From NCBI GenBank assembly GCA_964597275.1, contig CAZQXS010000002.1, positions 191 through 64,190 of the forward strand: DNA of 64,000 bases, in the 5' to 3' direction. Source of the DNA: an uncultured Pseudomonadota bacterium. Its GTDB lineage: Bacteria > SAR324 > NAC60-12. Under the pieces are notes generated by a model. The model saw nothing but the letters and a program-made list of their open reading frames with translations, had not been told where the DNA came from and did not search any database. Below, piece after piece: positions 1,047 to 18,263 of the stretch. Numbering within the stretch: the stretch's first letter is position 1; every line of letters begins with the position of its first letter. The position numbers and the translations under genes were made by a program.

Positions 1047-1162
1047 GTGCGGCTCAATCGTTGGCTGAGGTGACTATTCACTTGCGATCTTGAGTCGGGT
1101 TTCCTAACGTCAACTGCTTGCCCTCATTCAGAGGAGAACACAAACTTACGCAAAATTTCAGC

Positions 1163-2398
1163 ATGCAGGTGGTCAACAACAGGCTTTGTTTCGGCGGACT
1201 GGACGCCCCAACCCTTGTGCAGGAGTTCGGCTCGCCGCTCTACGTTTACGAAGCCGAGGTGTTGCGGGAGCGGTTCCGGAGCTTTCAGGCCGCGTTTTCG
1301 CAAAACGTCCACCTCCATTATGCTATGAAAGCAAATTCCAATCCAACGCTTCTGCGGCGGCTTCAGCAGGAGGGCGCGTGGATTGACGCGGTTTCTCCGC
1401 TGGAGGTGCGGCTGGCGCTGGACGCGGGATTTGCTCCAGAGCGCATCCTGTTCACCGGCAACAACTCGACTCCGGACGAGCTTGATTACTGCATCGCAAA
1501 AGGTGTGCCCGTCAACCTTGGTTCGCTGGAATCGTTGCGACGCTACGGCGAACGGCATCCGGGCACGGAAATCTCGGTGCGCGTGAACCCCGGCATGGGG
1601 GCGGGGCACCATTCGCACTGCATCACCGGAGGCCCGGCCTCCAAGTTCGGCATCTACCATGACCGCGTGGGCACGGCGCTGGAAATCGCCTCGGAAAACC
1701 GTGTCCGCATCATCGGGGTGCATTCCCACATCGGCACGGGCATCTTTGCGCCCGAACCGATGCTGGAGGCGATGGAACTGGTGTTGCAGACTTCCCAACA
1801 ATTTCCAGAGCTGCGCTTCATTGATTTTGGCGGTGGCTACGGCATTCCCTACCGCCCCGACCAAACCCCGCTCGACCTCCCGGAGTTGGGCCGCCAGATG
1901 CAGGAGCGCTTTGCGGCGTTCTGCACGGAATATGGACGGGAGCTGACCATGAAGCTCGAACCCGGTCGCTTCATCATCGGCCCCGCAGGCACGCTGCTGG
2001 TCACAGTGACGAACTTCACGGACACGCCCAAGTACTGCTTTGTCGGCGTGGATTCCGGGTTCAACCACCTCGTGCGTCCCACGATGTACGGCTCGTATCA
2101 CCACGTTCGCAACGCCTCTCGCGTCGAGGGGCCGGAGCAGGAGGTCGTCATCGTCGGCAACATCTGCGAAAGCGGCGACGTCTTCACCCGCAGCGAGGAG
2201 GGCATGACGCGCAAAATTCCGGAGATCGCAGTGGGCGACTGCCTCGCGCTCTGCGATGCTGGAGCCTACGGCATGTCCATGAGTTCGCAGTACAACACCC
2301 GTCCGCGTCCTGCCGAAGTGCTGGTGGAACACGGACAGGCGCAGCTCATCCGCCGCCGCGAAACCTACGAGGATTTGATCGCCTCCTTCAATATCTGA
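1163..2398 (+). CDS. lysA: diaminopimelate decarboxylase
   Basis: ORF 1118..2398; PLP-dependent Orn/DAP/Arg decarboxylase family motifs (GSPLYVYEAEVL, YAMKANSN, EPGRFIIGPAG, CESGD). Start chosen at Met16 (MQVVNN...) by N-terminal alignment to LysA. Confidence 0.85.
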   Translation: MQVVNNRLCFGGLDAPTLVQEFGSPLYVYEAEVLRERFRSFQAAFSQNVHLHYAMKANSNPTLLRRLQQEGAWIDAVSPLEVRLALDAGFAPERILFTGNNSTPDELDYCIAKGVPVNLGSLESLRRYGERHPGTEISVRVNPGMGAGHHSHCITGGPASKFGIYHDRVGTALEIASENRVRIIGVHSHIGTGIFAPEPMLEAMELVLQTSQQFPELRFIDFGGGYGIPYRPDQTPLDLPELGRQMQERFAAFCTEYGRELTMKLEPGRFIIGPAGTLLVTVTNFTDTPKYCFVGVDSGFNHLVRPTMYGSYHHVRNASRVEGPEQEVVIVGNICESGDVFTRSEEGMTRKIPEIAVGDCLALCDAGAYGMSMSSQYNTRPRPAEVLVEHGQAQLIRRRETYEDLIASFNI

Positions 2399-2400
2399 CC

Positions 2401-3804
2401 ATGATCCGCACCAAAATCATCTGCACCATCGGTCCGGTTTCCGAGTCCTACGACATGCTCAAGAGCATGTCAGGCGCAGGCATGAACGTCGCCCGACTCA
2501 ACATGTCCCACGGCGACCACGCCTGGCACCAGAAGGTCATCCGGCACATCAAGACGCTCAACCGCCAAATCCCCACGCCCATTGCGATTTTGCTCGACAC
2601 GCAGGGTCCGGAAATCCGCACCGGCTCGATCTCGGAAGACCTCGACCTTAAGCAGGGCGAGTTCATCACCATCAACGTGCGGGGCGAGAGCGATGTCGAA
2701 ACCACCTCGATCCATGTGGATTACGACGACCTCATCCGCACCGTGAACCCCGGCGACAAGATCACGGTGGACAACGGCCTCATCAACCTGGAGGTGCTGG
2801 AGAAGCACGACCGCGAGATGCGCTGTCAGGTGCTGGACGGCGGGGTGCTGAAGAGCAAGCGGCACGTCAACCTGCCCGGAGTGCGCATCAACCTGCCCGC
2901 GATCACGCAGAAGGATCGGCGCGACATCCTCTTTGGGCTGGAGAACGATGTGGACTTCATCGCCCTTTCCTTTGTGCGCGAGGCCAACGACATCCGGCAG
3001 CTCAGGGAACTGATGGACAAGAAGGTCGGCAAGATCAAGATCGTCGCCAAGATCGAGGATCAGGAAGGAGTGGCCAACTTGGAGCAGATCATCGAGGAAT
3101 CCGATGGCGTGATGGTGGCGCGGGGCGACCTTGGCGTGGAAATCCCGGTCCACACCGTGCCGTCCGTGCAGCGAGAAATCGTGCGCAAGTGCGCCGAGCG
3201 CGGACGCCGCGTGATCGTCGCCACCCACCTGCTCGAATCCATGATCAGCAACCCCATCCCCACCCGCGCCGAGGTCACGGACGTGGCCAACGCCGTCTAT
3301 GAGGAAGCCGATGCGGTGATGCTTTCCGGAGAAACCACGGTGGGCAAGTACCCGCTGCGCTGCATTGACCAACTCGTCAACATCGCCCGCACGATTGAGC
3401 AAAAACCCGGACTTCGCTTCGTCGAAAACCTGCGCTCCGATTCCGACAAGCAATCGCTCTCGAACGCCGCAGTCGCTCTGGCGGAATCGCTGGGAGTGCG
3501 CGGCCTTGTCGTGATCACTCGGCGCGGCGTGATGGCCGAGTACGTCAGCAACTGCCGTCCCACGAACAGCCTCATCTACGCCTTCACCAACGTCAGCCAA
3601 GCCCGCCGCACGATGATGCTCTGTCGGGGCTTGCGCTCCTATCGCATCAACTTCAGCGAGGATCCGGAAAAAACCCTGCAAACCGCCTTCATCGCGCTCA
3701 AGGAACGCGAGGGCTTCCAGTCCGGGGAAAAGGTCGTGGTGATCTCCGACGTGCTGGCCGGCTCCGGCAAGATTGACGCGATCCAGATCCGCCAGCTTCC
3801 CTGA
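2401..3804 (+). CDS. pyk: pyruvate kinase
   Basis: MIRTKIICTIGPVSESYDMLKSM...NVARLNMSHGDH: canonical pyruvate kinase N-terminus and barrel; 467 aa. 2-bp spacing after lysA. Confidence 0.9.
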   Translation: MIRTKIICTIGPVSESYDMLKSMSGAGMNVARLNMSHGDHAWHQKVIRHIKTLNRQIPTPIAILLDTQGPEIRTGSISEDLDLKQGEFITINVRGESDVETTSIHVDYDDLIRTVNPGDKITVDNGLINLEVLEKHDREMRCQVLDGGVLKSKRHVNLPGVRINLPAITQKDRRDILFGLENDVDFIALSFVREANDIRQLRELMDKKVGKIKIVAKIEDQEGVANLEQIIEESDGVMVARGDLGVEIPVHTVPSVQREIVRKCAERGRRVIVATHLLESMISNPIPTRAEVTDVANAVYEEADAVMLSGETTVGKYPLRCIDQLVNIARTIEQKPGLRFVENLRSDSDKQSLSNAAVALAESLGVRGLVVITRRGVMAEYVSNCRPTNSLIYAFTNVSQARRTMMLCRGLRSYRINFSEDPEKTLQTAFIALKEREGFQSGEKVVVISDVLAGSGKIDAIQIRQLP

Positions 3805-3805
3805 G

Positions 3806-5272
3806 ATGCCCCAAGTCGTGATGCTTCAGGGCACTGGCTCTGGAGTCGGGAAAAGCCTGCTCGCCGCCGGACTTTGCCGCTGGCTGGCGAACCGGGACTT
3901 CCGAGTGCTGCCCTTCAAGGCGCAGAACATGGCACTCAACTCCGGGGTCACGCCCGACGGCAAGGAAATCGGACGGGCGCAGGTGCTGCAAGCCGAGGCG
4001 TGCCGCGTAGCGCCGGACGTGCGCATGAACCCCGTGCTGCTCAAACCACAGGGGCCGGGCGTGTCGCAGTTGGTGCGCATGGGCGAAGCCATCCGGGTGT
4101 GTTCTGCACGGGAATACTACACGCTCGCCGAAGAGAATTTCCGGGTGGTGCAAAAGGCGTTTGCCTCGCTGAAAACGGAGGCGGACTGGCTCATCCTCGA
4201 AGGCGCGGGCAGTCCGGCGGAGATCAACCTGCAAGCCACCGACATCGTCAACATGCGCATGGCGGAACACGCGCAAGCCCGCGTGATCGTCGTGGGCGAC
4301 ATTGACCGGGGTGGTGTGTTCGCGTGGCTCAAGGGCACCTACGACCTCGTGCAGGACCGTCACCGCCCGCTCATTCAGGGCTTCCTCATCAATAAGTTCC
4401 GGGGAGACGTTTCCCTGCTCCAGCCCGGAATCCAGCAGTTTGGCGAACACGTCCCGGTTCCCGTGTTGGGCGTGATCCCGTGGCGCGAGTTTGCGCTGGA
4501 GGACGAGGATTCGCAGAATTTGCGTTCGCATCTCGTTCCGGGCGCACGTTTGGAAATCGCGGTGGTCCGCACCCCGTACCTCTCCAACTTCACCGACTTC
4601 GATCCACTCAAGCAGATTCCCGGCGTTTCCGTGCGTTTCACGCGCAATCCGGACGACCTCGCCTCGGCGCGCCTCATCCTCCTGCCCGGCAGCAAGAACA
4701 CCGTGCACGATCTGCGCTTCCTCCACGAATCGGGACTTTCCGACGAACTGCGAAGATTGCACGGGCGCACTTGGATCGCCGGAGTTTGCGGTGGCTACCA
4801 GATGCTCGGCACCGCAGTGGACGATCCCGACGGCATCGAAGACGGCGGTTCTCTTCCCGGACTCGGCCTCCTCAACTTGCAAACCCGCATGGCTCCCGAA
4901 AAAACGTTGGTGCGGCGCGAATACTCCGGGACGGGTTGGCTCAATGGTCTCCGCTGGCCGGCCTACGAAATCCACCACGGACGCACCGAGTTCACTGCTT
5001 CTGCAAGCCCCTCCGCCGCACCTTTTGTCGCAGATGCCCCGGACCTTGGCGTGATTGACTTCAAGAACCGCGTTCTGGGCACCTACCTCCACGGCTTTTT
5101 CGATACTCCGGAAATCGTCCGGCAAGTGCTGTCGCTGCTCACGCCGGAATCCTTCGAGCTACCTCCCGCCTTCCACGACCTCAAGGAGCGCGAACTGGAC
5201 GAACTCGCCGAGTTCCTTGACGAACACTGTGACGTGCCCCGCCTGCTCGGCATGAGTGCCTCTGGAGGGTGA
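3806..5272 (+). CDS. cobQ: cobyric acid synthase (CobQ/CbiP)
   Basis: MPQVVMLQGTGSGVGKSLLAAGLCRWL...PFKAQNMALNS: CobQ N-terminal ATP-binding domain plus C-terminal glutamine amidotransferase domain. Start taken at Met12 of ORF 3773..5272 so it does not overlap pyk. Confidence 0.85.
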   Translation: MPQVVMLQGTGSGVGKSLLAAGLCRWLANRDFRVLPFKAQNMALNSGVTPDGKEIGRAQVLQAEACRVAPDVRMNPVLLKPQGPGVSQLVRMGEAIRVCSAREYYTLAEENFRVVQKAFASLKTEADWLILEGAGSPAEINLQATDIVNMRMAEHAQARVIVVGDIDRGGVFAWLKGTYDLVQDRHRPLIQGFLINKFRGDVSLLQPGIQQFGEHVPVPVLGVIPWREFALEDEDSQNLRSHLVPGARLEIAVVRTPYLSNFTDFDPLKQIPGVSVRFTRNPDDLASARLILLPGSKNTVHDLRFLHESGLSDELRRLHGRTWIAGVCGGYQMLGTAVDDPDGIEDGGSLPGLGLLNLQTRMAPEKTLVRREYSGTGWLNGLRWPAYEIHHGRTEFTASASPSAAPFVADAPDLGVIDFKNRVLGTYLHGFFDTPEIVRQVLSLLTPESFELPPAFHDLKERELDELAEFLDEHCDVPRLLGMSASGG

Positions 5273-5294
5273 GGTGGACCGCGCCACCTTTCAC

Positions 5295-5591
5295 ATGATC
5301 CTGCATTTCGCGGTGCCGCTCGCTTTTGCGCTCGGAGGCTTCCGGGAACGCTGGCGCACGGCGTTTCTGGTGATAATGGCCACGATGGCGGTGGACCTCG
5401 ATCACTTGCTCGCCGATCCGCTCTACGATCCCTTCCGCTGCAGCATCAACTTCCATCCGCTGCACTCCGACCCCGCCATCGGAGTCTATGCCTTGCTCCT
5501 CGTGTTCCCGCTCACGCGCCTGCCCGCCCTCGGATTGCTCATCCACATGTCCCTCGACGGACTCGACTGCATCTGGATGGGCTTGGGGTGA
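5295..5591 (+). CDS. small polytopic membrane protein (hypothetical; possible YdjM-like membrane-bound hydrolase family)
   Basis: ORF 5256..5591; hydrophobic segments and a DLDHLL His/Asp motif. Start ambiguous (GTG at 5256 or ATG at 5295). Confidence 0.35.
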   Translation: MILHFAVPLAFALGGFRERWRTAFLVIMATMAVDLDHLLADPLYDPFRCSINFHPLHSDPAIGVYALLLVFPLTRLPALGLLIHMSLDGLDCIWMGLG

Positions 5592-5719
5592 GTCGGGTTT
5601 TCGCTCGATTATTGCATTCGCTTTGTGTTCAACTGAACAAAAGCACTCAACAGTGCTTCGTCCTGTGTTCACTGGAACTTCTGCGTTGTGCGGGAGCCAC
5701 TTTTTTCAGAGAGGTTGCC

Positions 5720-6781
5720 ATGCTTGCAAACGACGAGATTTCCTCCGGAGAATCCGAAGGCGCGTTCAACGAGTTCATCGAGGAGCAGCTCGAACACCTC
5801 GTGGACAACATCATCAGCGAGGGCGAAATCTCCGGGGCCGGAGAGCGCGGCAGCGAGGTCATCGTTGAGATTGATGACATTGTCGCCCCCACCTTCTCCT
5901 ACGGCGACGATGGCGAGGAGGGCGGTTCCGGAGGGCAGGGGCCGGGACGCGACGGCGGCAAGCTGCGCTTCAGCGTCCCCTTCGACTTCCTCATGGAGCG
6001 CATCGCCCGCACCCTCAAGCTCCCCAACCTCAAAAAGGAGGGCAAGGGGCGCATCAAGGAAATCTCCCACGAGTTCAAGACCTTCGCCCCCGTCGGCTCC
6101 GTGCTGGACAAGAAGCGCACCTTCAAGCGGGTGCTGCGCACCAGCATCGGCATGGAACTCTACGCCCCGGAACAAAACCGCTACGACCTCCAGTTCCGGC
6201 GACGCGACAAACGCTACAAGGTGCCGGAGCGCGTGGAGCGTCCCAAGTTCAAGGCCGTCGTCTTCTACATGGGCGACATCTCCTACTCCACCTACGGCGA
6301 ACGCCTGCGCTTGGAAAAGCGGCTGGTTGGTTTCATCCAGAACTGGATTGATTTCAACTACGGAGCCAAGAGCGTCGAACACCGCTTCTTTGTCCACGAT
6401 GCCGAAGCCTATGAAGTGGAAGAGGAAAACTTCTACCGCGTCGGCAACGCCGGAGGCACCCTCGCCTCGCCGGTCTATCGGCTCGTTCACCAAATCGCCA
6501 CCAACGAGTACGACCCCGGAACCACCAACTTCTACGCCTTCTACTTCGGCGACGGCGAGCTGTTTGACGAGGACGCCAAGGAAATCGTCGGGTTGCTCGA
6601 AGAGCAGATGCGCCCGATCTTCAACCGCATCGGCATCGTCGAGGTCCAGCCCGGACGCCTGAGCCTGCTCAACCGCCAAGTCGCCACGCAGTTCCACCGC
6701 GATGCCGTGATCCGGCTGGGCGAGTTGAATGACCGCCTCGAAACCATCGAGGTGATCAAGACCCTCTTCACGGAGCGCTGA
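5720..6781 (+). CDS. yeaH: YeaH/YhbH family protein (DUF444, vWA-like)
   Basis: Aligns by eye to E. coli YeaH: acidic N-terminus, Gly-rich stretch (GGSGGQGPGRDGG), LPNLKKEG, C-terminal vWA-like region. Start at MLANDEISSGE (Met45 of ORF 5588..6781). Confidence 0.8.
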   Translation: MLANDEISSGESEGAFNEFIEEQLEHLVDNIISEGEISGAGERGSEVIVEIDDIVAPTFSYGDDGEEGGSGGQGPGRDGGKLRFSVPFDFLMERIARTLKLPNLKKEGKGRIKEISHEFKTFAPVGSVLDKKRTFKRVLRTSIGMELYAPEQNRYDLQFRRRDKRYKVPERVERPKFKAVVFYMGDISYSTYGERLRLEKRLVGFIQNWIDFNYGAKSVEHRFFVHDAEAYEVEEENFYRVGNAGGTLASPVYRLVHQIATNEYDPGTTNFYAFYFGDGELFDEDAKEIVGLLEEQMRPIFNRIGIVEVQPGRLSLLNRQVATQFHRDAVIRLGELNDRLETIEVIKTLFTER

Positions 6782-6782
6782 G

Positions 6783-8405
6783 ATGCGCAGCATTCGCACC
6801 GACTCCGCCCTTCACGCACTGGAACAGCGGGTGGTCCATCACGCCAGTGAGTTTGGCCGCACGCTTCCGGAGATGCGCTTTTTCATCCTCGACAGCATGG
6901 AGTTCATGTCACTGCTGGAAAAGGGGGTGTACCCGACCAGCCCGGTCAACATCTGGGAGGGCAAGCGCATGGTCAGCCGCAAGCATCGCGTGGAGACGGG
7001 ACAGGAGTCCGCGATTTACTACGAGGTGGTGCAGACGGGCAATCCCTCCTACGCCTACCTCAACCACACCAACTCGCCAATGATGCAGGCCTCCGTGATG
7101 GCGCATGTCGTGGGGCACTGCGAGTTTTCGGAACTGAACGTGCTTCAGGATTCCACGCAGGACCGCACCGAGTTTGTGATGCACCTGTCCAAAAAGGTGG
7201 ACCTTGCGCGCCAGCAAATGGGCGAGGTGCATTACTCGCAGTACTGGAACGCCTGCGAGTCGCTGCTGCCCCTGATCGCTCCGCACTCGCAGTTCAACCT
7301 CGCCCGCTCCATCGAGACCGACTCGCCCGCGCTCCAGCAGGAAACCGACACCGCCGTTTCCGAATCCCGTGCAATTCCGCCGTTCACGCCAATCTCCGAA
7401 ACGCTGGACAGCCTGCTGCACCCCACCAACCCGGAAGAAGCGTGGCAGCAGGAGTTGCAGACGAAGCTGCGGCAGGAAACCATCAGCCGCAAGGGCTACA
7501 AGCTGCGGGCACCCTGTCAGGACATCTTCGGCTTCCTTCGCGCTCATGCGCCCACCAGCACGGCTGAACGCACCCTGCTGGACTACCTCTACACGGTTCA
7601 CTCCACCCACGATTTCATCCTCCGCACCCAGATCATGAACGAGGGCTGGGCGATGTATTGGGAGAAGAAGATCATGCTGGAACTCTTCAAGGAGCGGGCG
7701 GTGACGGGTATCATTGACTACGCCCGCGTCTTCTCCGGAGTCTGCTTCCCCCGACCCTACTTCGCCCGCAATCCCTACCACCTCGGCTTCCACCTCTGGA
7801 ATCATGTGGAGGAACTGTTTCAGGACGGCAAGGTTTCGCTGGAATACGTCGAGGAAACCGACCAACACGCCAAGGAGACCTGGAAGCGTGAGCCGCGCAA
7901 AAACCCGGTGCGGCACATGGAAGACCTCATCCGCAGCACCACGGATTACGAGTTCCTGCGGCGCTTCCTGACCCCGGAACTCGCGCATGAATTGCACCTC
8001 AACCGCCTTCACAAATCCGAGGCCCAACGGCTGCGGATTCCCCCGGACAGCATCGTCAAAGACGAAGGACCGTGGGTGTGGATGGACCCGGAGCCGATCA
8101 AGGAGGAGATGCTCAACTTCTTCACCCACTTCGCCCGGCCCCGCGTGTACATCATTGACACCGACTTTCAGGATGGCGGCCTGCTGCTCTACCACCGCGA
8201 CGACGGGCGGCGGCTCCGCAAGGACTGGATCAAGCCGACCCTCAAGAACCTCAACATGCTCTGGAAAGGTCCGGTGTACCTGATCTCCCGGAACTGGCTC
8301 TACTCGTTCTCCGCCAACCTTTTCAAGGAAACCGTGGTCACGGAACTGCGCTTCGAGAAAATCCTGGAGCGTGTTCAAAACTCGGAGAAGCCGTTCAAGA
8401 TGTAA
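6783..8405 (+). CDS. spoVR: SpoVR/YcgB family protein
   Basis: 540 aa; conserved SpoVR motifs (MAHVVGHCEF, NEGWAMYWEKKIM). Starts 2 bp after the yeaH stop. Confidence 0.8.
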   Translation: MRSIRTDSALHALEQRVVHHASEFGRTLPEMRFFILDSMEFMSLLEKGVYPTSPVNIWEGKRMVSRKHRVETGQESAIYYEVVQTGNPSYAYLNHTNSPMMQASVMAHVVGHCEFSELNVLQDSTQDRTEFVMHLSKKVDLARQQMGEVHYSQYWNACESLLPLIAPHSQFNLARSIETDSPALQQETDTAVSESRAIPPFTPISETLDSLLHPTNPEEAWQQELQTKLRQETISRKGYKLRAPCQDIFGFLRAHAPTSTAERTLLDYLYTVHSTHDFILRTQIMNEGWAMYWEKKIMLELFKERAVTGIIDYARVFSGVCFPRPYFARNPYHLGFHLWNHVEELFQDGKVSLEYVEETDQHAKETWKREPRKNPVRHMEDLIRSTTDYEFLRRFLTPELAHELHLNRLHKSEAQRLRIPPDSIVKDEGPWVWMDPEPIKEEMLNFFTHFARPRVYIIDTDFQDGGLLLYHRDDGRRLRKDWIKPTLKNLNMLWKGPVYLISRNWLYSFSANLFKETVVTELRFEKILERVQNSEKPFKM

Positions 8406-8414
8406 GGAGGCCTC

Positions 8415-10952
8415 ATGGAAAAAACAGCCCTCACCGCACCCGAAACCGAACCCAATCCCTTCAACGTCCGCGACTTGCTGGGCCTGCGCCAGCGACGCAC
8501 CCTGCGGTTCTCGGAATTCGTGCAGGAGTTTTTGGAGCATCCGGATGACTACCTGCACACCTCGTCCTCGCTGATTGCCGCCGCGATCAAGCATTTCGGC
8601 TTCGAGATCGTGGTGCGCAGCGGCGAGCCGGTGTTGTCCTACAACATCTTCCGGGATCCCTTCAGCAGCGGCATCAACGCGGTGTTTGGTCAGGAGTTCT
8701 GCATCAAGCAGATTCTGGAGATCATCGAATCGGCGGACAAGGAGGTCGGCCCCAACCGGGGCATCATCCTCGTCGGCCCACCTGCGTCTGGAAAGACCAA
8801 CGTGGTGGACTTGCTGGTGCGGGCCTTGGAAGAGTACCTCAAGCAGGCCAACGTGCGGCTCTATTCCTTCCTCTTCCATTTCGAGGGACGCTCAGGGCGC
8901 ACCGTGGACATCCGCTCGGAGTTCCAGCAAAGCCCGGTGCTGCTCTTCCCCACGCTGCTTCAGGGAGAGAACGGCACGCTCTCGCGCCCTCGACAGGAGT
9001 TGTTTGAACACCTTGAGCGACAGCGTCGGGCCGCCGCAAGCGTCCACATTCCGGTGTATTACCAGAACGCCTCGCTCGACAAGCGCACCCTCGATGTGTT
9101 TGAGGGATTGCTGCACAACCCGCGCAATCAGGACAAGTCGCTGTTCGAGCTGCTGGAGGAGTACGTGCGCATCGAGGAGACGGAGTTCTCTGCCGCACAG
9201 GCCAAGGGCATCGCCAACATTGACGAGATGGCGCAACTGCACGTCCAGACCGTTCCCGTGGTGCTGGGGCAGGACGACCTTGAAGTCCTCCGCGAACACA
9301 TTCCGGGCTTCAACCCCTACCGCTACGAAGGCGCAACCGTCGGCTCCAACCGGGGCATCCTGCACATCCACGATGCCTTCGGGGTCAACGGAGAGCGCAT
9401 CCGTGAGAGCGATTACAAGCCGCTGCTCATGCTGCTCGGCAGCGGGCGGGTTTCCGTGGAGTCCACGCAGACTCCGGTGGACACCAACGTCGTCCTCACC
9501 ACCAACATCGAGGAGATGGAACTGCTGGATCACCAGCTCACCTCTTCCAAGCTGCTCGACCGCATCGAGAAGGTGCCCGTCAACTACCTGCTCGATGCCC
9601 GTGGCGAAATGGACATCCTGCGCCGCGACATGGCCAACATCAGCGAGAAGTACGAGGTGGACCCCAACCTCTTCCGGGTCGCGGCCTACTATTCCGTGAT
9701 GACGCGGCTGCTACCGCCCATGCGCCGCAAGTTTCCTCTCGGCTGGAGCGTTGAGAAAACCGAACTCTACCTTGGCATCACACCAGAACAAAAGCTGCTC
9801 ATCTACTCCTCGCTCAACGAGGATCCCGTCGGCACTATCCAGAAACTCCCGCACTGGCACCCGTTCCGAAACGAGGCGCTACGCATGGGCCTGAACCTCT
9901 CCCACCCCGAACACTTCGCCCCCTTCATCAAGCAGCATCCAGATGCCGTGGCCCTGCGGCATTCCGAAATGTTCGAGGAGGAGGAACTCAAGCTCATTGA
10001 CGACGAGTTCATGCGCATGCTGCTTCAGGAGCACTACCCCAACGAGGGGCGCAACGGCATCTCCATCCGGCAGCTTCAGAACGTGATGCGCAACACCATC
10101 GCCAACTCCGACGGCCACAAGGTCCACGTGGGCATCTTCCTCAGCCAACTCAAGAAGATGATTTCGGAGGGGCCGGAATTCCACCACTGGCTGGAAATTG
10201 ACGCGCAGTACACCAGCAAGCGCCGTCCCATCCCGGAGCGCACCCTCGATGGCCTTGACCTCATCGAAGGCGAGGGCGACTTTGGCGATTTTCAGGGGCT
10301 GGTTTCGGTCGTCAAGGCGCTCTACCACACCCTCATCCGCCGCGAGATCACGGTCTGCACGGTGGACCGCGACCCGCTCCAGATCGAAGCCGACCTGCGC
10401 CGCTACCTCCAGCACGCCCTGCTCGCCCGCGCCACCCGCAACAAGGCGTTCGCGCATGTCATGGTGCCGCGCTTCACCTTCATTGACCCCCTTTCCGGAC
10501 GCAAGGTGGACGAACCGGACCTCAACTACATGGCGTCCATCGAGGCGATCCTCACCCCAGACGAAGACTCCACCGAGGCGTTTCGGCAGGAAGTCGCCCA
10601 AAAGTTTCTGGACCTGCAATCCTCCGGAGACCTCGTGCTGGAATCGGACAAGGCCATCCTCACCTCCCGCAACGACAACCTCTTGCAGTGCTTCTCGAAG
10701 GAGTACGCGCAACTGCTCTCGCACCGCAAGGTGGACGACGAGATTGATCCAGAGCTACTGAGCAACGCCTTCTTCCAAAAGCTCAACGACCCGGAAGCCT
10801 TTGAGCGGGCCGTTCCGGCGGTGCGGCAATTCGTCGAGCGCATCCTCCAGAACATGCGGACGCGCTACCGCTACCCCAACTCTATCGCGCTCGCCACCAT
10901 CGTCTTCGCCCTGCGCAAAGGAGTGATTGACTTCCGCAACATCCTCAGCTGA
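8415..10952 (+). CDS. prkA: PrkA-family serine protein kinase (AAA+ N-domain, YeaG-like), unusually long at 845 aa
   Basis: Walker A GPPASGKT. Overall N-to-C collinearity with B. subtilis PrkA / E. coli YeaG (LLGPVGGGKS..., LKANGERSPV...PLCLF vs FHFEGRSG...SPVLLFP). Follows spoVR by 10 bp. Confidence 0.75.
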   Translation: MEKTALTAPETEPNPFNVRDLLGLRQRRTLRFSEFVQEFLEHPDDYLHTSSSLIAAAIKHFGFEIVVRSGEPVLSYNIFRDPFSSGINAVFGQEFCIKQILEIIESADKEVGPNRGIILVGPPASGKTNVVDLLVRALEEYLKQANVRLYSFLFHFEGRSGRTVDIRSEFQQSPVLLFPTLLQGENGTLSRPRQELFEHLERQRRAAASVHIPVYYQNASLDKRTLDVFEGLLHNPRNQDKSLFELLEEYVRIEETEFSAAQAKGIANIDEMAQLHVQTVPVVLGQDDLEVLREHIPGFNPYRYEGATVGSNRGILHIHDAFGVNGERIRESDYKPLLMLLGSGRVSVESTQTPVDTNVVLTTNIEEMELLDHQLTSSKLLDRIEKVPVNYLLDARGEMDILRRDMANISEKYEVDPNLFRVAAYYSVMTRLLPPMRRKFPLGWSVEKTELYLGITPEQKLLIYSSLNEDPVGTIQKLPHWHPFRNEALRMGLNLSHPEHFAPFIKQHPDAVALRHSEMFEEEELKLIDDEFMRMLLQEHYPNEGRNGISIRQLQNVMRNTIANSDGHKVHVGIFLSQLKKMISEGPEFHHWLEIDAQYTSKRRPIPERTLDGLDLIEGEGDFGDFQGLVSVVKALYHTLIRREITVCTVDRDPLQIEADLRRYLQHALLARATRNKAFAHVMVPRFTFIDPLSGRKVDEPDLNYMASIEAILTPDEDSTEAFRQEVAQKFLDLQSSGDLVLESDKAILTSRNDNLLQCFSKEYAQLLSHRKVDDEIDPELLSNAFFQKLNDPEAFERAVPAVRQFVERILQNMRTRYRYPNSIALATIVFALRKGVIDFRNILS

Positions 10953-10953
10953 C

Positions 10954-11484
10954 ATGAAGCCAAAACCCTTGGAGCCAATGCGGATTCGTCCGGAAACCGA
11001 AGCCGATCACGCCGGAGTCCGGCAGGTGCATCTTGAAGCGTTTGGGGGTGCGGAAGAAGCCGATTTGGTGGATCGCCTGCGGGATGCCGGAGCCGACAAG
11101 GTCGCGCTTGTTGCGGAAGTGTCTGGAGTGATTGCGGGGCAGGTGCTGTTCAGTCCCGTCACAGTGGAGAGTTCCCCTGACGATTCGGCAGCACTCGGAC
11201 TCGCGCCGCTCGGAGTCTTTCCCGCTCACCAACGCCAAGGCATCGGCAGTGCCCTCACCCACGCTGGGCTTGCGGCGTGTCGGGACTTGGGCTGCGGGGC
11301 CGTCTTCGTGCTGGGGCACCCGGAATACTACCCGCGCTTCGGCTTCCAACCCGCCTCCGACCACGGACTCTGGTTCGCCGACCTCGGCTTCCGGCCTGCC
11401 TTCATGGCCCTTGAACTGAAGCCAGAAGCACTTGCCCACCTCTCCGGCTCCGTTTCCTACCATCCTGAGTTTGCAGGAGTGTAG
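10954..11484 (+). CDS. GNAT-family N-acetyltransferase
   Basis: 177 aa; acetyl-CoA binding motif region (QRQGIGSAL...G). Start at MKPKPLEPMRIRPET. Confidence 0.7.
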   Translation: MKPKPLEPMRIRPETEADHAGVRQVHLEAFGGAEEADLVDRLRDAGADKVALVAEVSGVIAGQVLFSPVTVESSPDDSAALGLAPLGVFPAHQRQGIGSALTHAGLAACRDLGCGAVFVLGHPEYYPRFGFQPASDHGLWFADLGFRPAFMALELKPEALAHLSGSVSYHPEFAGV

Positions 11485-11500
11485 ATCTTCCTACATTCGT

Positions 11501-13159
11501 TCAATCCGGCTCAATAACGTAGTAGGGGATTTTTTGAGTAGTCGTTTCATAATCTCTCTTAAACATCGGTTTGACCTTGTTCAAAAGCGTCATGTCCAGC
11601 TTGCGATCACCCTTTTCAAGCACAATCTGAGAGAGGTATAGCGTGTTGCCAATTCGATGTAATCCAGCATGGGCAAGGTGATAATTTTCGACAATGTACT
11701 TCCATGACTCCCATGATGCCGCCTGCTTGAGATAGCGTGCGTTAATGTAGATGAAGCGTGAATTGAAGACATCTTCATAATTTCTGATGGCTTCCGTTGA
11801 TGCAGAAAGGTTGGAGCAGTACCTTTGAGCAAAATAACAGGTCGCCACATTTTGAGCAGAGCCAAGTGCAAACATTTTATCTGAGGGGTTTGTTCGTGAT
11901 TTCACATACTCTCCAGCAACGTCCAATCCAAAAAACTGAACATTGTACTGCCGATCAATGCTTGCTTTGACTTCACCATACGCATAACCCAGAATCACAA
12001 TGGAGCCAATGATTGACAAATAGGGTATTTTTATAAATTTTGATATTATCAAAAACACACTATGCAGACTGTATGCAACTCCGAATGAAAACAAATAGAC
12101 ATACGGCATTTGATAGTAATTATGCTGGTTGACATGGTCACTAAAGACAATCATGAAAGGAATGATTGAAAGCAAATTGAGCAATATGAAATAGCGAAAA
12201 TTACTCTTCACAAACAACATGAACAACAACCCAACAGTGAAAATATAAATCAACAAGTACGTGTAATTGTCCAGAAAATACCCAATGGAATCTATCGCCT
12301 TCCAGTATTCAAGGTCAAACGACTGTAACGGCTTGATCCGGCTACTCGCATAGCCCGAATGTCCCGGATTGAGCATCAGACTGGAGATGATGTAGATTGG
12401 AAAAATCAGGACGCTCAAAAATCCGGACCACGGGATCAATTCACGAATCCGGTTGCTTGACCGGAAGGCACGGAACAATTCTTGGTAGGGGATCAAGGCA
12501 AGCAGGGCAATCGAGGGGATCACAAACGCAGACTTGTAAAATCCGGTCAGCGTCCACGCAAGCCCGGTCAGGAGGGAGAACTGCCAAGAAGGCCGAGCTT
12601 TCCATCGGTTGAACAAGACGAAAGTCAGCAGCAGGCAGGCCAACCCCGGAGCTTCCGGTTGGATGTTCCTGCCAAAAAAAACATTGAGCGGCAGGATCGC
12701 CATCACCAAAGCCGTCAGCAAAGACAGGGTCTTGTCCTTGCTGAGTTGTTGTGTGAGGACAAACGAAAGGAAGATCGAACCCAGTGAAAAGAGAATCATT
12801 TGCAGACGGACGCTCCAGACATTCTCTCCCGTGACCTCCCAAACCAGTGCCGCCACATAGGAAATCAAGGGCACTTGAGCATAGGTGTCGAAATCCTTGT
12901 CATCGTAAAAGAACACCTTCCGCTCCAAGGAGAAGCCCTCATGGAAATAATGATGGGCCATGCTCAGGTATTCATTCTCCTTCATGTTGTGATACCCGAT
13001 GCTTGGATAATCCATGTGATAGGAGCGAAGATACGCACCAAACGCGAGAATCACGATCAATCCAAGGTACACCTGATGCTTGAGTGCAAAGGCGAGCAGG
13101 CGTTCCGCATTGATTGCTGGAGTGGGGGTTTCTGCAGGAGATTCGTTCTCTTGCGGCAT
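11501..13159 (-). CDS. GT-C fold glycosyltransferase, family 39 (PMT/ArnT-like) polytopic membrane protein
   Basis: 552 aa, 10+ predicted TM segments; N-terminal loop with DxD-like acidic motif typical of ArnT/PMT_2. The gene and its flanks are markedly AT-richer (~42-45% GC) than the surroundings. Confidence 0.6.
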   Translation of the reverse strand: MPQENESPAETPTPAINAERLLAFALKHQVYLGLIVILAFGAYLRSYHMDYPSIGYHNMKENEYLSMAHHYFHEGFSLERKVFFYDDKDFDTYAQVPLISYVAALVWEVTGENVWSVRLQMILFSLGSIFLSFVLTQQLSKDKTLSLLTALVMAILPLNVFFGRNIQPEAPGLACLLLTFVLFNRWKARPSWQFSLLTGLAWTLTGFYKSAFVIPSIALLALIPYQELFRAFRSSNRIRELIPWSGFLSVLIFPIYIISSLMLNPGHSGYASSRIKPLQSFDLEYWKAIDSIGYFLDNYTYLLIYIFTVGLLFMLFVKSNFRYFILLNLLSIIPFMIVFSDHVNQHNYYQMPYVYLFSFGVAYSLHSVFLIISKFIKIPYLSIIGSIVILGYAYGEVKASIDRQYNVQFFGLDVAGEYVKSRTNPSDKMFALGSAQNVATCYFAQRYCSNLSASTEAIRNYEDVFNSRFIYINARYLKQAASWESWKYIVENYHLAHAGLHRIGNTLYLSQIVLEKGDRKLDMTLLNKVKPMFKRDYETTTQKIPYYVIEPD

Positions 13160-13272
13160 GGCAACTTTCCGGGAAGGTTAAACTTAAAGTATAGATTCAG
13201 TCAATCCTAGGAAAAGCAGATCATAGGACGCTTGGGAAAATACTCAACGTATTATTTTCCCGCACCTCCACA

Positions 13273-14499
13273 TCACCCGATCACCCCAGCCGCTTTCCAC
13301 TCGGCAAGCTGCGCGTCGGTCACGTTCAGGGATGCTCGCAACACGTCCTCGGTGTGCTGTCCCAACGTGGGCGGCGAGTGGCGGTAGGAAACCGGAGTCT
13401 CCGACATCCGGACGGGGCTGGCCAGTAGCCGCAGCGGGTCTCCGGCAAGCGGGTGTTCCATTTCGTGGACCATGCCCCGATGCTGGATTTGCGGGTCGTC
13501 GAGCATTTCCGGCACGGAGTTCACGGGGCCAACGGGCACTCCCAGCGCGGCCAGCCCTTCCAGCCAGTGTTGCTTGGAGCGTTTCCGGGTGAGGTCGTTG
13601 ATGAGGGGAAGGAGGGCGATCCGGTTCTTGACACGGTTCTGGTTGGTGTTGAAGCGGGGATCATCGGCAAGCTCCGGAGCCTCGGCAAACTCGCAGAACT
13701 TGCGAAACTGTCCTTCGTTGCCGATGGCAAGAATGAAGTGGCCGTCCGAGGTGGGGAACACCTGATAGGGCGAGATGTTCGCGTGGGCGTTGCCGTAGCG
13801 TTTGGGCGGCTCCCCGGAGGTGAGGTAGTTGAGGCCGACGTTGACCAGCCACGCCGCATGGGAGTCCAGCAGGGAAAGGTCAATGTGCTGGCCCACGCCG
13901 CCTTGCTCGCGGTGCCGAACGGCAGAGAGAATGGACACTGCCGCGTACATCCCGCACATCACGTCCGCAATCGCCACCCCCACCTTCACCGGCTCCCCTT
14001 CCGGTTCTCCCGTGATGCTCATGATGCCCCCCATGCCCTGGACCATCAGGTCGTATCCAGCTTGGCTGGCGCGGGGTCCGGTTTGTCCAAAGCCCGTGAT
14101 CGAGCAGTAGATCAAGTTCGGAAATTCGGCGTGCAGGGATTCGTAGTCGAGTCCGTACTTCTTCAGGCCGCCGACCTTGAAGTTCTCCAGAAAAATGTCG
14201 CTTTGCTCTGCAAGTTGTCGGATGAGCTGCTGCCCTTCGGGATGGGCAAGGTCAATGGCGACCGAGCGCTTGTTGCGGTTGGCGCTCAAGTAGTAGGCAC
14301 TTTCGGTGGTGTCGTCGCCCTGCGCATCCTTGGCAAAAGGCGGCCCCCAGTTGCGAGTGTCGTCGCCTGCTCCGGGCTTTTCGATCTTGAGGACATCGGC
14401 TCCCAAATCGCCCAGCAGTTGGGCGCAAACGGGTCCGGCAAGGATGCGGCTGAGGTCGAGGATGCGAAGCCCCGCGAGGGGGCCAGTGTTGGTGGTCAT
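13273..14499 (-). CDS. CoA-transferase family III protein (CaiB/BaiF; formyl-CoA transferase-like)
   Basis: MTTNTGPLAGLRILDLSRILAGPVCAQLLGDLGADVLKIEKP...: canonical family III CoA-transferase N-terminus. Confidence 0.85.
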   Translation of the reverse strand: MTTNTGPLAGLRILDLSRILAGPVCAQLLGDLGADVLKIEKPGAGDDTRNWGPPFAKDAQGDDTTESAYYLSANRNKRSVAIDLAHPEGQQLIRQLAEQSDIFLENFKVGGLKKYGLDYESLHAEFPNLIYCSITGFGQTGPRASQAGYDLMVQGMGGIMSITGEPEGEPVKVGVAIADVMCGMYAAVSILSAVRHREQGGVGQHIDLSLLDSHAAWLVNVGLNYLTSGEPPKRYGNAHANISPYQVFPTSDGHFILAIGNEGQFRKFCEFAEAPELADDPRFNTNQNRVKNRIALLPLINDLTRKRSKQHWLEGLAALGVPVGPVNSVPEMLDDPQIQHRGMVHEMEHPLAGDPLRLLASPVRMSETPVSYRHSPPTLGQHTEDVLRASLNVTDAQLAEWKAAGVIG

Positions 14500-14561
14500 G
14501 GAAGGTGAATCACGGATTACAGGTTAACAATAGTTTTCGCAATTTTCTGAATCTAGGCACT

Positions 14562-14649
14562 CCGTTCGCCCTGAGCTTGTCAAAGCCTGTCCTGAGCCAA
14601 GCCGAAGGGGGCGCTTCCGTTCGTACTCCGACAAGCTCAGCACGAACGG
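14562..14649. repeat. REP-like palindromic element, family A ('LSLSKG' repeat), copy 1
   Basis: Inverted repeat CCGTTCGCCCTGAGCTTGTC ... GACAAGCTCAGCACGAACGG. Related copy at 28193-28256. Confidence 0.7.
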
Positions 14650-14791
14650 GAATGCTGTCACCGCAAAAAATTGCGTAAAGTTCTGAAAGCTTTGCACGAA
14701 TCGCCGCCTTCGGCAACCCGAAAGGGAATCCGGACTGGTGTTGCGCCCGGAATCCCGTAAAATCGTCGGGTCACGTTTGCTCGAACCCTGT

Positions 14792-18253: not shown

Positions 18254-18263
18254 TGAGATTGCC

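What the first reader, a model, noticed from the sequence alone, without database searches (positions are those of the whole stretch)
5720..10952. yeaH-spoVR-prkA stress module in non-canonical order with an 845-aa PrkA
The conserved but functionally obscure PrkA/YeaG, YeaH/YhbH (DUF444) and SpoVR/YcgB trio is present as a compact operon with 2-bp and 10-bp gaps. The kinase gene is last rather than first, and the PrkA protein is about 200 aa longer than the B. subtilis and E. coli proteins. The module governs nitrogen-starvation and sporulation-associated adaptation in model organisms, yet its molecular mechanism is unresolved. An enlarged kinase with a rearranged operon is a useful variant for dissecting it.
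Basis: partly seen in the sequence, partly recalled or inferred. Interest (0 to 1): 0.5.

Follow-up and report, generated by a model that had tools for sequence, protein, structure and literature searches.

The report
Second PrkA paralogue with YeaH and SpoVR
The three genes are real, but the 845-residue "kinase" is a distinct second PrkA-type AAA+ ATPase that usually follows prkA1-yeaH-spoVR in a four-gene cluster, so this window shows a split version of that cluster, not a shuffled ordinary operon.

Summary
yeaH/DUF444 (5720-6781), spoVR (6783-8405) and an 845-aa PrkA-like gene (8415-10952) lie on the + strand with 1-nt and 9-nt spacers. The length is genuine: a strong Shine-Dalgarno site precedes ATG 8415, and about 830-aa homologues (53-100% identity, about 98% coverage) occur in many phyla.

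The interpretation needs correcting. The protein is not an enlarged YeaG orthologue (NCBIfam YeaG equivalog 14.6 bits against a 576 cut-off). It belongs to a tight, separate paralogue family that I call PrkA2.

- In 52 of 68 informative related loci, PrkA2 is the fourth gene of prkA1(739 aa)-yeaH-spoVR-prkA2.
- 11 loci share the window's three-gene form, and 5 have prkA2 alone.
- In three MAGs where PrkA2 is not next to prkA1, PrkA1 is encoded on another contig.

The extra ~200 aa is spread over more than ten indels. The largest family-specific one covers residues ~469-519. A confident AlphaFold model (pLDDT 94) matches only AAA+ folds, with no kinase or protease fold. All ATPase motifs are intact, and YeaH keeps a complete MIDAS motif.

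Most likely this is an AAA+/VWA/SpoVR remodelling module with two ATPase paralogues. Interest is moderate: a new variant of a known, mechanistically unresolved system.

The parts
5592..5719 (+). Intergenic leader upstream of yeaH. It contains a perfect 7-bp palindrome AAGCACT-caac-AGTGCTT (5641-5658), a stem plus T-run (5678-5705) and the Shine-Dalgarno-like GAGAGG 5 nt before the ATG.
   Evidence: Sequence read and scan. No sigma-70 or sigma-54 consensus above chance. No Rfam match. A regulatory role was not tested.
5720..6781 (+). yeaH/yhbH-type DUF444 protein, 353 aa, with a VWA-like C-terminal part carrying a complete MIDAS motif: DISYS at residues 186-190 (nt 6275-6289), GGT at 245-247, GDGE at 277-280.
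   Evidence: Pfam DUF444 2.2e-41. NCBIfam equivalog cut-offs are not reached (best 155 against 388). MIDAS residues are at least 95% conserved in 65 orthologues (coordinates). The gene at this position of the canonical operon is described as VWA-containing in PMC3188799.
6783..8405 (+). SpoVR/YcgB-family protein, 540 aa. Its start is 1 nt after the yeaH stop. Conserved motifs are MAHV-GHCEF (residues 106-115) and MNEGWAMYWE (285-294).
   Evidence: Pfam SpoVR 8.5e-43. SpoVR_C scores 22.4 bits, below its 27.6 cut-off. Conservation across 64 orthologues. No solved relative by sequence.
8415..10952 (+). Long PrkA paralogue ('PrkA2'), 845 aa: N-terminal domain, AAA+ core with inserts, lid, a family-specific helical insertion, and a helical C-terminal PrkA domain.
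   Evidence: Pfam AAA_PrkA and PrkA_C at 52 bits each. YeaG equivalog 14.6 of 576 bits. 264 family members found. hhalign probability 99.4% against PrkA1/YeaG, collinear. AlphaFold2 pLDDT 94, pTM 0.89. AAGGAGG 5 nt before the ATG.
8775..8801 (+). Walker A motif GPPASGKTN (residues 121-129; K127).
   Evidence: Invariant in 24 family members. G121, P122 and K127 are invariant across 113 PrkA-like proteins.
9357..9380 (+). Walker B strand ILHIHDAF (residues 315-322; D320). It aligns with the VEIHE of PrkA1 and the MEFVE of YeaG.
   Evidence: H317, H319, D320 and F322 are invariant in the family. Alignment.
9495..9713 (+). Sensor-1 N364 (LTTN), arginine finger R383 (LLDRIE) and sensor-2 R431 (MTRLL).
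   Evidence: N364, R383 and R431 are invariant in the family. R383 and R431 are invariant and N364 at least 90% conserved across 113 PrkA-like proteins.
9819..9971 (+). Family-specific insertion, residues ~469-519, containing the conserved LPHWHPFRNE (W481, F484 and E487 invariant). PrkA1, YeaG and 86 other PrkA-like proteins have no counterpart.
   Evidence: hhalign gap. Merged alignment: 48-aa insertion at residues 473-520. Occupancy below 20% in 86 other PrkA-like proteins. Modelled as short helices with pLDDT above 90.
10954..11484 (+). GNAT acetyltransferase, 176 aa, starting 1 nt after the PrkA2 stop. It is probably co-transcribed here but is not part of the conserved module.
   Evidence: Sequence. 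Pfam Acetyltransf_9/1/7. Absent next to PrkA2 in all 80 related loci.

Best explanation
**Shown.** The window carries a yeaH(VWA/MIDAS)-spoVR-prkA2 operon. The 845-aa product belongs to a compact, phylum-spanning family of about 830-aa PrkA paralogues ('PrkA2'). This family is distinct from the YeaG/PrkA orthologue line. In most genomes that have it, it is the fourth gene of a cluster prkA1(739 aa)-yeaH-spoVR-prkA2. The window and its closest relatives represent a split form in which prkA1 is no longer adjacent. PrkA2 keeps every AAA+ ATPase motif, and YeaH keeps a full metal-ion-dependent adhesion site.

**Inferred.**

- The window's organism still encodes PrkA1 elsewhere, as three related MAGs do.
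- PrkA2 is an ATP-driven AAA+ motor, not a Hanks kinase and not a Lon-type protease. It works with PrkA1, possibly in a mixed ring.
- YeaH acts as the VWA adaptor and SpoVR as partner or target. This mirrors MoxR-type AAA+/VWA remodelling pairs.
- The output is starvation or stress adaptation, as for YeaG-YeaH-YcgB.
For: **Identity.**

- Pfam hits are above threshold, but the YeaG equivalog is far below cut-off.
- BLASTP to YeaG gives only 24% identity over 164 aa.
- hhalign is collinear with PrkA1/YeaG at 99.4% probability.
- PrkA1 matches the solved 692-aa PrkA (9xip) end to end at 3e-71, while PrkA2 reaches only 2.8e-20.

**Distinct family.** A profile search of 1.84 billion representatives gave only about 5 full-length clusters at 800-1438 bits. 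Scores then drop to 250 bits or less.

**Gene order.**

- 52 loci are four-gene, 11 three-gene and 5 solitary.
- The same 'PrkA last' layout occurs in a distant lineage, where the first gene is PrkA1-type (hhalign E 6.6e-65).

**PrkA1 elsewhere in the same MAG.** This holds for JAFGKU, JAFGRV and JAYOTF. JAYOTF carries the PrkA2 that is 72% identical to the window's.

**Motifs.**

- Walker A, D320, N364, R383 and R431 are invariant.
- PrkA1 motifs are also invariant.
- The YeaH MIDAS motif is conserved.

**Functional linkage of the trio.** Cofitness of yeaG, yeaH and ycgB in six bacteria (10.1101/072470). Operon confirmed by RT-PCR in R. etli (PMC3188799). Purified B. anthracis PrkA showed no kinase or protease activity (PMC13001217).
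Against: - No PrkA1 is present in the 64-kb window. Its presence elsewhere in this genome is inferred from relatives only.
- Nothing here shows a physical PrkA1-PrkA2, PrkA-YeaH or PrkA-SpoVR interaction.
- In both independent splits, and in the loci with solitary prkA2, the genes can be separated. This argues against an obligatory stoichiometric complex encoded in cis.
- Published work reports kinase activity for E. coli YeaG and protease activity for B. subtilis PrkA (PMC9512850). An enzymatic C-terminal domain therefore cannot be excluded from a model alone.
Confidence: 0.65

Rival explanations
1. One reading: this is the ordinary prkA-yeaH-spoVR operon with the kinase gene moved to the end, and the kinase is an orthologue enlarged by a ~200-aa inserted domain.
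For: In the window the PrkA-like gene is indeed last and 201 aa longer than YeaG.
Against: - 52 related loci carry a canonical-order prkA1-yeaH-spoVR followed by this gene as a fourth member.
- Both paralogues coexist in the same genomes.
- The YeaG equivalog score is 14.6 against a 576 cut-off.
- The extra length is scattered over at least 14 indels.
Confidence: 0.04
2. PrkA2 is the only PrkA of this organism. PrkA1 was lost, and PrkA2 alone, as a homo-oligomer, serves YeaH and SpoVR. The three-gene operon is then a self-sufficient alternative module.
For: - No PrkA1 lies within 64 kb.
- In two independent lineages it is prkA2, not prkA1, that stays with yeaH-spoVR.
- PrkA2 has all its ATPase motifs.
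Against: All three MAGs that could be checked keep PrkA1 on another contig. Solitary PrkA1 loci are common: minCDE-VKOR-PrkA1 and dnaA-gyrB-PrkA1-serA.
Confidence: 0.2
3. PrkA2 is an enzyme in the classical sense. Either it is a Ser/Thr protein kinase like the activity reported for YeaG, or it is an ATP-dependent Lon-like protease like the activity reported for B. subtilis PrkA, with the C-terminal domain providing catalysis.
For: - Pfam names the C-terminal domain 'PrkA serine protein kinase'.
- The best Foldseek matches include the LonC AAA-like domain.
- Kinase and protease activities are reported in the literature (PMC9512850).
Against: - No Pkinase or Lon_C Pfam hit.
- Residues 531-845 are modelled as almost entirely helical.
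- Structural hits cover only the AAA+ part, with no kinase or S16 peptidase chain in the top lists.
- Purified B. anthracis PrkA lacked both activities, and the earlier protease signal was attributed to a contaminant (PMC13001217).
Confidence: 0.12
4. The 845-aa length is an annotation artefact: an upstream extension or a fusion of two genes.
For: The window protein has 14 more N-terminal residues than most family members.
Against: - The whole 830-aa core aligns without breaks in 24 or more homologues from many phyla.
- There is a strong Shine-Dalgarno site at the annotated start.
- The single-chain model has pLDDT 94.
Confidence: 0.01

Closest known systems
E. coli YeaG-YeaH plus YcgB, B. subtilis PrkA-YhbH plus SpoVR, and the R. 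etli prkA-vWA-spoVR operon
   Same: The same three protein families (PF08298/PF06798, PF04285, PF04293), genomically linked. AAA+ motifs and the VWA/MIDAS motif are conserved. These systems have stress and starvation roles and strong mutual cofitness (10.1101/072470; PMC3188799).
   Different: The window's PrkA-like protein is not the YeaG orthologue: 24% identity over 164 aa, and the equivalog score is far below cut-off. It is a second paralogue, 200 aa longer, and sits after spoVR. YeaH is about 75 aa shorter than E. coli YeaH. All three proteins miss the NCBIfam equivalog thresholds.
Haloarchaeal signature cluster: two adjacent PrkA genes plus DUF444 plus SpoVR (PMC3102087)
   Same: Two PrkA paralogues are encoded together with one DUF444 and one SpoVR gene, as in 52 bacterial relatives of this locus.
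   Different: [quoted passage not shown] Here the order is PrkA1-YeaH-SpoVR-PrkA2, and in the window PrkA1 is missing from the cluster. I did not test whether the haloarchaeal second paralogue is orthologous to this family.
PDB 9xip/9xiq/9xir 'Serine protein kinase' (692 aa), the only solved PrkA-family protein found
   Same: Shares the N-terminal region and AAA+ lid with PrkA2 (E 2.8e-20). It matches the partner PrkA1 end to end (3e-71).
   Different: PrkA2 aligns only in two stretches (residues 32-157 and 348-451). The structure was not in the fold libraries searched, and no paper describing it was found.
MoxR-class AAA+/VWA chaperone pairs (NorQ-NorD, CbbQ-CbbO, RavA-ViaA, BchI-BchD)
Lon / LonC proteases
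   Different: No Lon protease domain was detected by Pfam or by fold. TM-scores are about 0.2 over the whole chain.

Membership tests
PrkA superfamily (Pfam PF08298 AAA_PrkA + PF06798 PrkA_C) | Both Pfam domains score above their gathering scores and occur in N-to-C order. | tested here: met
   52.0 and 52.3 bits against cut-offs of 25, at residues 250-437 and 531-745. hhalign probability 99.4% and collinear with PrkA1/YeaG.
PrkA superfamily (Pfam PF08298 AAA_PrkA + PF06798 PrkA_C) | Intact AAA+ motifs: Walker A Lys, Walker B acid, sensor-1 Asn, Arg finger, sensor-2 Arg. | tested here: met
   K127, D320, N364, R383 and R431 are invariant in 24 family members. K127, R383 and R431 are invariant across 113 PrkA-like proteins.
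YeaG/PrkA orthologue group (NCBIfam NF011999 equivalog) | Whole-protein score at or above the curated equivalog cut-off of 576 bits. | tested here: not met
   14.6 bits. BLASTP to E. coli YeaG gives 24% identity over 164 aa.
YeaG/PrkA orthologue group (NCBIfam NF011999 equivalog) | First gene of a prkA-yeaH(-spoVR) operon. | tested here: not met
   It is the last gene here. In 52 relatives another protein, PrkA1, occupies the first position.
Long PrkA2 paralogue family (defined here by alignment A1) | An approximately 825-848-aa protein with GPPASGKTN, LHIHDAF, YKPLLMLLGS and the 469-519 insertion containing HWHPFRNE. | tested here: met
   The window sequence is the reference row, and all motifs are present. 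The insertion is absent from 86 other PrkA-like proteins.
Two-PrkA four-gene cluster (prkA1-yeaH-spoVR-prkA2; compare the haloarchaeal signature cluster) | Two PrkA paralogues encoded in one cluster with DUF444 and SpoVR. | tested here: not met
   Only one PrkA-like gene lies in the 64-kb window. The feature is met in 52 of 68 informative related loci. The window is a split derivative.
YeaH/YhbH (DUF444, PF04285) | Pfam DUF444 above its gathering score, and a VWA-type MIDAS motif (DxSxS...T...D). | tested here: met
   142.8 bits against a cut-off of 27. DISYS, GGT and GDGE are at least 95% conserved. NCBIfam equivalog cut-offs are not reached.
SpoVR/YcgB (PF04293) | Pfam SpoVR above its gathering score. 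| tested here: met
   147 bits against a cut-off of 27. The C-terminal SpoVR_C model is just below its cut-off (22.4 against 27.6). The equivalog NF008737 scores 81.7 against 679.
Hanks-type Ser/Thr protein kinases | A protein-kinase fold or Pkinase signature with a catalytic loop and P-loop. | tested here: not met
Lon-family ATP-dependent proteases | An S16 peptidase domain with a Ser-Lys dyad following the AAA+ module. | tested here: not met
   No Lon_C Pfam hit. Lon and LonC structural matches cover only the AAA-like part, 163-274 aligned residues.
MoxR-class AAA+/VWA remodelling systems | A MoxR-type AAA+ protein (AAA_3/AAA_5 signature) paired with a VWA/MIDAS protein. | tested here: inconclusive
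PrkA module function (stress/starvation signalling) | Induction by, or a phenotype under, nutrient limitation, and mutual dependence of the three or four genes. | not testable with these tools
   Only literature on distant orthologues is available (10.1101/072470; PMC3188799; PMC13001217).

The most novel reading that the evidence does not exclude
PrkA1 and PrkA2 are obligate partners that assemble into a mixed AAA+ ring, as with Rvb1/2 or Pex1/6. This ring uses the MIDAS protein YeaH as adaptor to remodel or load SpoVR, or a SpoVR-bound client. The PrkA2-specific 469-519 insertion would be the paralogue-specific docking surface. On this reading, single-PrkA systems such as E. coli and Bacillus are the reduced form of an ancestral two-motor machine. 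That machine is also carried by large phages (L105, L106).
Probability: 0.25. Interest if true: 0.6.

Novelty: new variant of a known kind. Interest (0 to 1): 0.4.

Why it matters
The PrkA/YeaG-YeaH-SpoVR module is one of the most widespread bacterial gene trios without an agreed biochemical mechanism. Kinase, protease and inactive-ATPase claims conflict.

Many bacteria, some phages and, per the literature, haloarchaea encode two strongly diverged PrkA paralogues around one YeaH and one SpoVR. Both paralogues keep their ATPase motifs, which points towards a multi-subunit AAA+ machine and away from a simple kinase.

This gives concrete experiments:
- mixed-ring assembly of PrkA1 and PrkA2;
- the role of the 469-519 insertion;
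- use of cultured hosts that carry the module, Acanthopleuribacter pedis and Sulfidibacter corallicola.

For this window specifically, the practical consequence is an annotation correction. The gene is a PrkA2-type paralogue in a split cluster, not an enlarged YeaG in a rearranged operon.

Tried and rejected
- **Promoters.** Sigma-54 (TGGCAC-N5-TTGCW) and sigma-70 scans upstream of yeaH found nothing above chance.
- **Rfam** on 5000-11600 gave no match.
- **PADLOC defence models** gave no meaningful hit, so the module is not a known defence system.
- **First AlphaFold run** with 24 close homologues was poor (pLDDT 67.5, AAA core below 50) and was discarded. The 113-sequence run replaced it.
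- **afdb50 fold library** was unavailable.
- **Sequence search of YeaH and SpoVR against PDB** found no relatives.
- **Synteny of flanks.** CobQ, pyruvate kinase, GNAT, PMT and CoA-transferase are not conserved next to the module in relatives, so the flanks are not part of it.
- **Upstream accessory genes.** A Cro/C1-type HTH gene (L005-L009, L044) and a DUF3047-like secreted protein (L003, L004) precede yeaH in some relatives. Both are absent from the window.
- **Names for the ~750-aa next-nearest PrkA-like proteins.** The only organisms named were Planctomycetota, plus one partial Burkholderiales entry, all as 'serine protein kinase PrkA'. No link to the haloarchaeal second paralogue could be made.
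- **Linking PrkA1 to the MAGs of L003-L009 and L044** failed within the look-up cap. Links were obtained only for JAYOTF, JAFGKU and JAFGRV.
- **Paper for PDB 9xip.** None was found in the library.


Full report
**1. Observation**

The + strand of the window carries three closely spaced ORFs.
- 5588/5720-6781. This is 353 aa from ATG 5720, which is preceded by GAGAGG at 5 nt.
- 6783-8405, 540 aa.
- 8415-10952, 845 aa.

Pfam assigns them to DUF444 (2.2e-41), SpoVR (8.5e-43), and AAA_PrkA plus PrkA_C (7e-14 and 8.5e-14), all above gathering score.

The spacers are 1 nt and 9 nt. AAGGAGG lies 5 nt before ATG 8415. E. coli YeaG is 644 aa, so the '200 aa longer' statement is correct.

**2. The 845-aa protein is not an enlarged YeaG**

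- The curated YeaG equivalog model scores 14.6 bits against a cut-off of 576.
- BLASTP to YeaG finds 24% identity over 164 residues.
- Pfam AAA_PrkA scores fall in a series: 623 bits for YeaG, 169 for the partner 'PrkA1' described below, and 52 for the window protein.
- The protein nonetheless has many full-length homologues of 825-846 aa at 55-100% identity and about 98% coverage. They come from SAR324, other 'Deltaproteobacteria', Acidobacteriota (including cultured Acanthopleuribacter pedis), Verrucomicrobiota, Lentisphaeria and Calditrichota.
- A profile search of 1.84 billion cluster representatives returned only about five full-length 50%-identity clusters at 800-1438 bits. Scores then drop abruptly to 250 bits or less for other PrkA-like proteins of mostly 740-920 aa.

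This is a tight and separate subfamily. Its length is a family trait, not an artefact.

**3. Gene order in relatives**

A scan of one genome per species gave 104 confirmed matches, and 80 distinct loci were kept for analysis. I surveyed them by tblastn with the window's three proteins, E. coli YeaG and YeaH, and the upstream PrkA of locus L010.

| Arrangement | Loci |
|---|---|
| Four genes on one strand: PrkA1 (739 aa) - YeaH - SpoVR - long PrkA ('PrkA2') | 52 |
| YeaH - SpoVR - PrkA2, with at least 2.3 kb upstream and no PrkA1 | 11 |
| PrkA2 alone | 5 |
| Too short to classify | 12 |

- The 11 three-gene loci come from two lineages: the window's closest relatives (L003-L007, L009, L044) and four Zodletone Spirochaetales MAGs.
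- PrkA1 is the canonical-type protein. It aligns end to end with the only solved PrkA-family structure (9xip, 692 aa, E 3e-71). PrkA2 reaches only 2.8e-20 in two stretches.
- PrkA1 is also much more conserved (mostly 74-92% identity across phyla) than PrkA2 (53-72%).
- A distant lineage shows the same layout: PrkA1-type (hhalign E 6.6e-65) - DUF444 - SpoVR - 147-aa ORF - PrkA of 796 aa.

The canonical order prkA-yeaH-spoVR (PMC3188799; 10.1101/072470) is therefore preserved in this group. The window's 'kinase last' gene is an additional paralogue appended to it.

**4. Where is PrkA1 in the three-gene genomes?**

The 64-kb window has none. In three MAGs where PrkA2 is not adjacent to PrkA1, PrkA1 is encoded on another contig of the same assembly.

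| MAG | PrkA1 contig | PrkA2 contig |
|---|---|---|
| Spirochaetales | JAFGKU010000124 | JAFGKU010000225 (yeaH-spoVR-prkA2) |
| Spirochaetales | JAFGRV010000012 | JAFGRV010000070 |
| JAYOTF | JAYOTF010000014 (minCDE-VKOR-PrkA1) | JAYOTF010000010 (solitary PrkA2, 72% identical to the window's) |

Other solitary PrkA1 loci exist, including dnaA-gyrB-PrkA1-serA and VKOR-PrkA1. I therefore infer, but have not shown, that the window's organism also keeps PrkA1 elsewhere. I could not link PrkA1 to the MAGs of L003-L009 within the look-up cap.

**5. Where the extra residues are**

- Profile-profile alignment is collinear from residue 19 to 738 of PrkA2, against residues 1-638 of PrkA1.
- A merged alignment shows at least 14 indels of 6 aa or more relative to YeaG. 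Several are shared with PrkA1, for example a 27-aa insert after Walker A and a 23-25-aa insert near residue 590.
- Compared with 86 other PrkA-like proteins, four segments are family-specific: residues 469-519, 599-619, 677-688 and 182-191.
- The 469-519 segment carries the invariant W481, F484 and E487 within LPHWHPFRNE.

There is no single 200-aa inserted domain.

**6. Structure and motifs**

- With a 113-sequence alignment, AlphaFold2 gave pLDDT 94 and pTM 0.89.
- The model shows these regions in order:
  - an N-terminal alpha/beta domain;
  - an AAA+ core with a large insert between Walker A and Walker B;
  - a beta-hairpin (residues 345-354) just before the sensor-1 strand;
  - a lid;
  - the helical family-specific insertion;
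  - an almost entirely helical C-terminal region.
- Walker A (GPPASGKTN), the Walker B acid D320, sensor-1 N364, arginine finger R383 and sensor-2 R431 are invariant.
- PrkA1 keeps the equivalent residues, so neither paralogue looks like a dead subunit.
- YeaH keeps a full MIDAS motif (DISYS...GGT...GDGE). SpoVR keeps two His/Glu-rich motifs.

**7. Mechanism**

What is shown:
- an AAA+ ATPase paralogue with intact motifs;
- a VWA/MIDAS protein and a SpoVR protein encoded in one translationally coupled unit;
- co-occurrence with a second, canonical PrkA in most genomes.

What is inferred:
- The system works as an ATP-driven remodelling machine, in which YeaH is the adaptor. This is by analogy with MoxR/VWA pairs such as NorQ-NorD.
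- PrkA1 and PrkA2 cooperate, possibly in a mixed ring.

Published data fit one pathway of uncertain chemistry:
- strong cofitness of yeaG, yeaH and ycgB (10.1101/072470);
- a protease claim for B. subtilis PrkA (PMC9512850);
- no kinase or protease activity in carefully purified B. anthracis PrkA (PMC13001217).

Against a strict cis-encoded complex, the genes can be separated: 11 three-gene loci, 5 solitary prkA2 loci, and solitary prkA1 loci.

**8. Comparison with known systems and novelty**

- Two PrkA genes with DUF444 and SpoVR were noted as a haloarchaeal signature cluster (PMC3102087).
- I found no description of the bacterial PrkA1-YeaH-SpoVR-PrkA2 arrangement or of this long paralogue family. 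Databases label its members 'hypothetical protein' or 'PrkA AAA domain-containing protein'.
- The window is a split derivative of that arrangement.

I rate it a new variant of a known kind. Interest is moderate, because it offers a new handle on an unresolved, very widespread module.

**9. Side observations**

Distant members of the family lie in phage-like DNA.
- An IMG/VR contig (L106) has a major head protein 1.5 kb from SpoVR-PrkA2-PrkA1.
- A 56-kb contig (L105) carries ribonucleotide reductase, the four-gene module, McsA/McsB-like genes, ThyA and thioredoxin.
- A third contig (L103) has a PrkA2-like gene among about 30 small unannotated ORFs.
- PHROGs already holds families of unknown function for PrkA, SpoVR and DUF444.

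Noticed in passing
window 10954-11484 (+): A GNAT acetyltransferase gene starts 1 nt after the PrkA2 stop (TGAcATG), so it is probably co-transcribed. It is not found next to PrkA2 in any of the 80 related loci.
   Followed up: partly
window 11501-13159 (-): A PMT_2-type (family 39-like) glycosyltransferase gene lies in a patch of about 41% G+C, against about 61% for the rest of the window. It may have been acquired horizontally.
   Followed up: no
window 5295-5591 (+) and 5641-5658: A small DUF6122 membrane protein (98 aa, Pfam 2e-32) lies between the CobQ-like gene and yeaH. Among relatives only L004 shares it. The leader of yeaH contains a perfect palindrome AAGCACT-caac-AGTGCTT whose function is unknown.
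   Followed up: partly
L106 (IMGVR_UViG_3300009149_008416) 5998-17276: A phage contig carries a major head protein (phrog_2522, 2.8e-63), then SpoVR, PrkA2 (48% identity) and PrkA1 (69% identity), with the two PrkA genes adjacent. An intein-containing glycosyltransferase follows. No YeaH homologue was detected in the 20 kb held.
   Followed up: partly
L105 (JGI 3300041081 contig, 56 kb) 1-18547: A phage-like context: ribonucleotide reductase, PrkA1-DUF444-SpoVR-PrkA2 (848 aa, 45% identity), then a UVR/McsA-like gene, a McsB-type protein arginine kinase and a DHH protein. ThyA, thioredoxin and many small ORFs follow. The McsAB neighbours hint at a link to protein quality control.
   Followed up: no
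L103/L104 2829-5222: The most divergent full-length family member (797 aa, 39% identity) stands alone among about 30 small same-strand ORFs without Pfam hits. This looks like phage DNA.
   Followed up: no
L010-L081, PrkA1 genes (for example L010 3086-5305): PrkA1 is unusually conserved: mostly 74-92% identity between phyla, and always about 739 aa. PrkA2, YeaH and SpoVR of the same clusters are 53-81% identical. The two paralogues are under very different constraint.
   Followed up: partly
L005-L009, L044/L083 (for example L083 6369-7100): In the marine SAR324-like three-gene loci, a Cro/C1-type HTH protein (about 243 aa) is encoded directly upstream of yeaH on the same strand. It is a candidate regulator and is absent from the window.
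   Followed up: partly
L003 4460-5173, L004 4552-5268, L086 5150-6127: A secreted DUF3047-like protein precedes yeaH in the two closest three-gene loci. A DUF3047 gene also lies near an unrelated solitary PrkA-like gene (P0140). This may be coincidence.
   Followed up: no
window 9447-9476 (PrkA2 residues 345-354): The confident model places a beta-hairpin between helix alpha3 and the sensor-1 strand. This looks like the pre-sensor-1 hairpin of the Clp/Lon/NtrC/MCM/MoxR group. It sits uneasily with the 'Clade III' assignment proposed for B. anthracis PrkA (PMC13001217).
   Followed up: no
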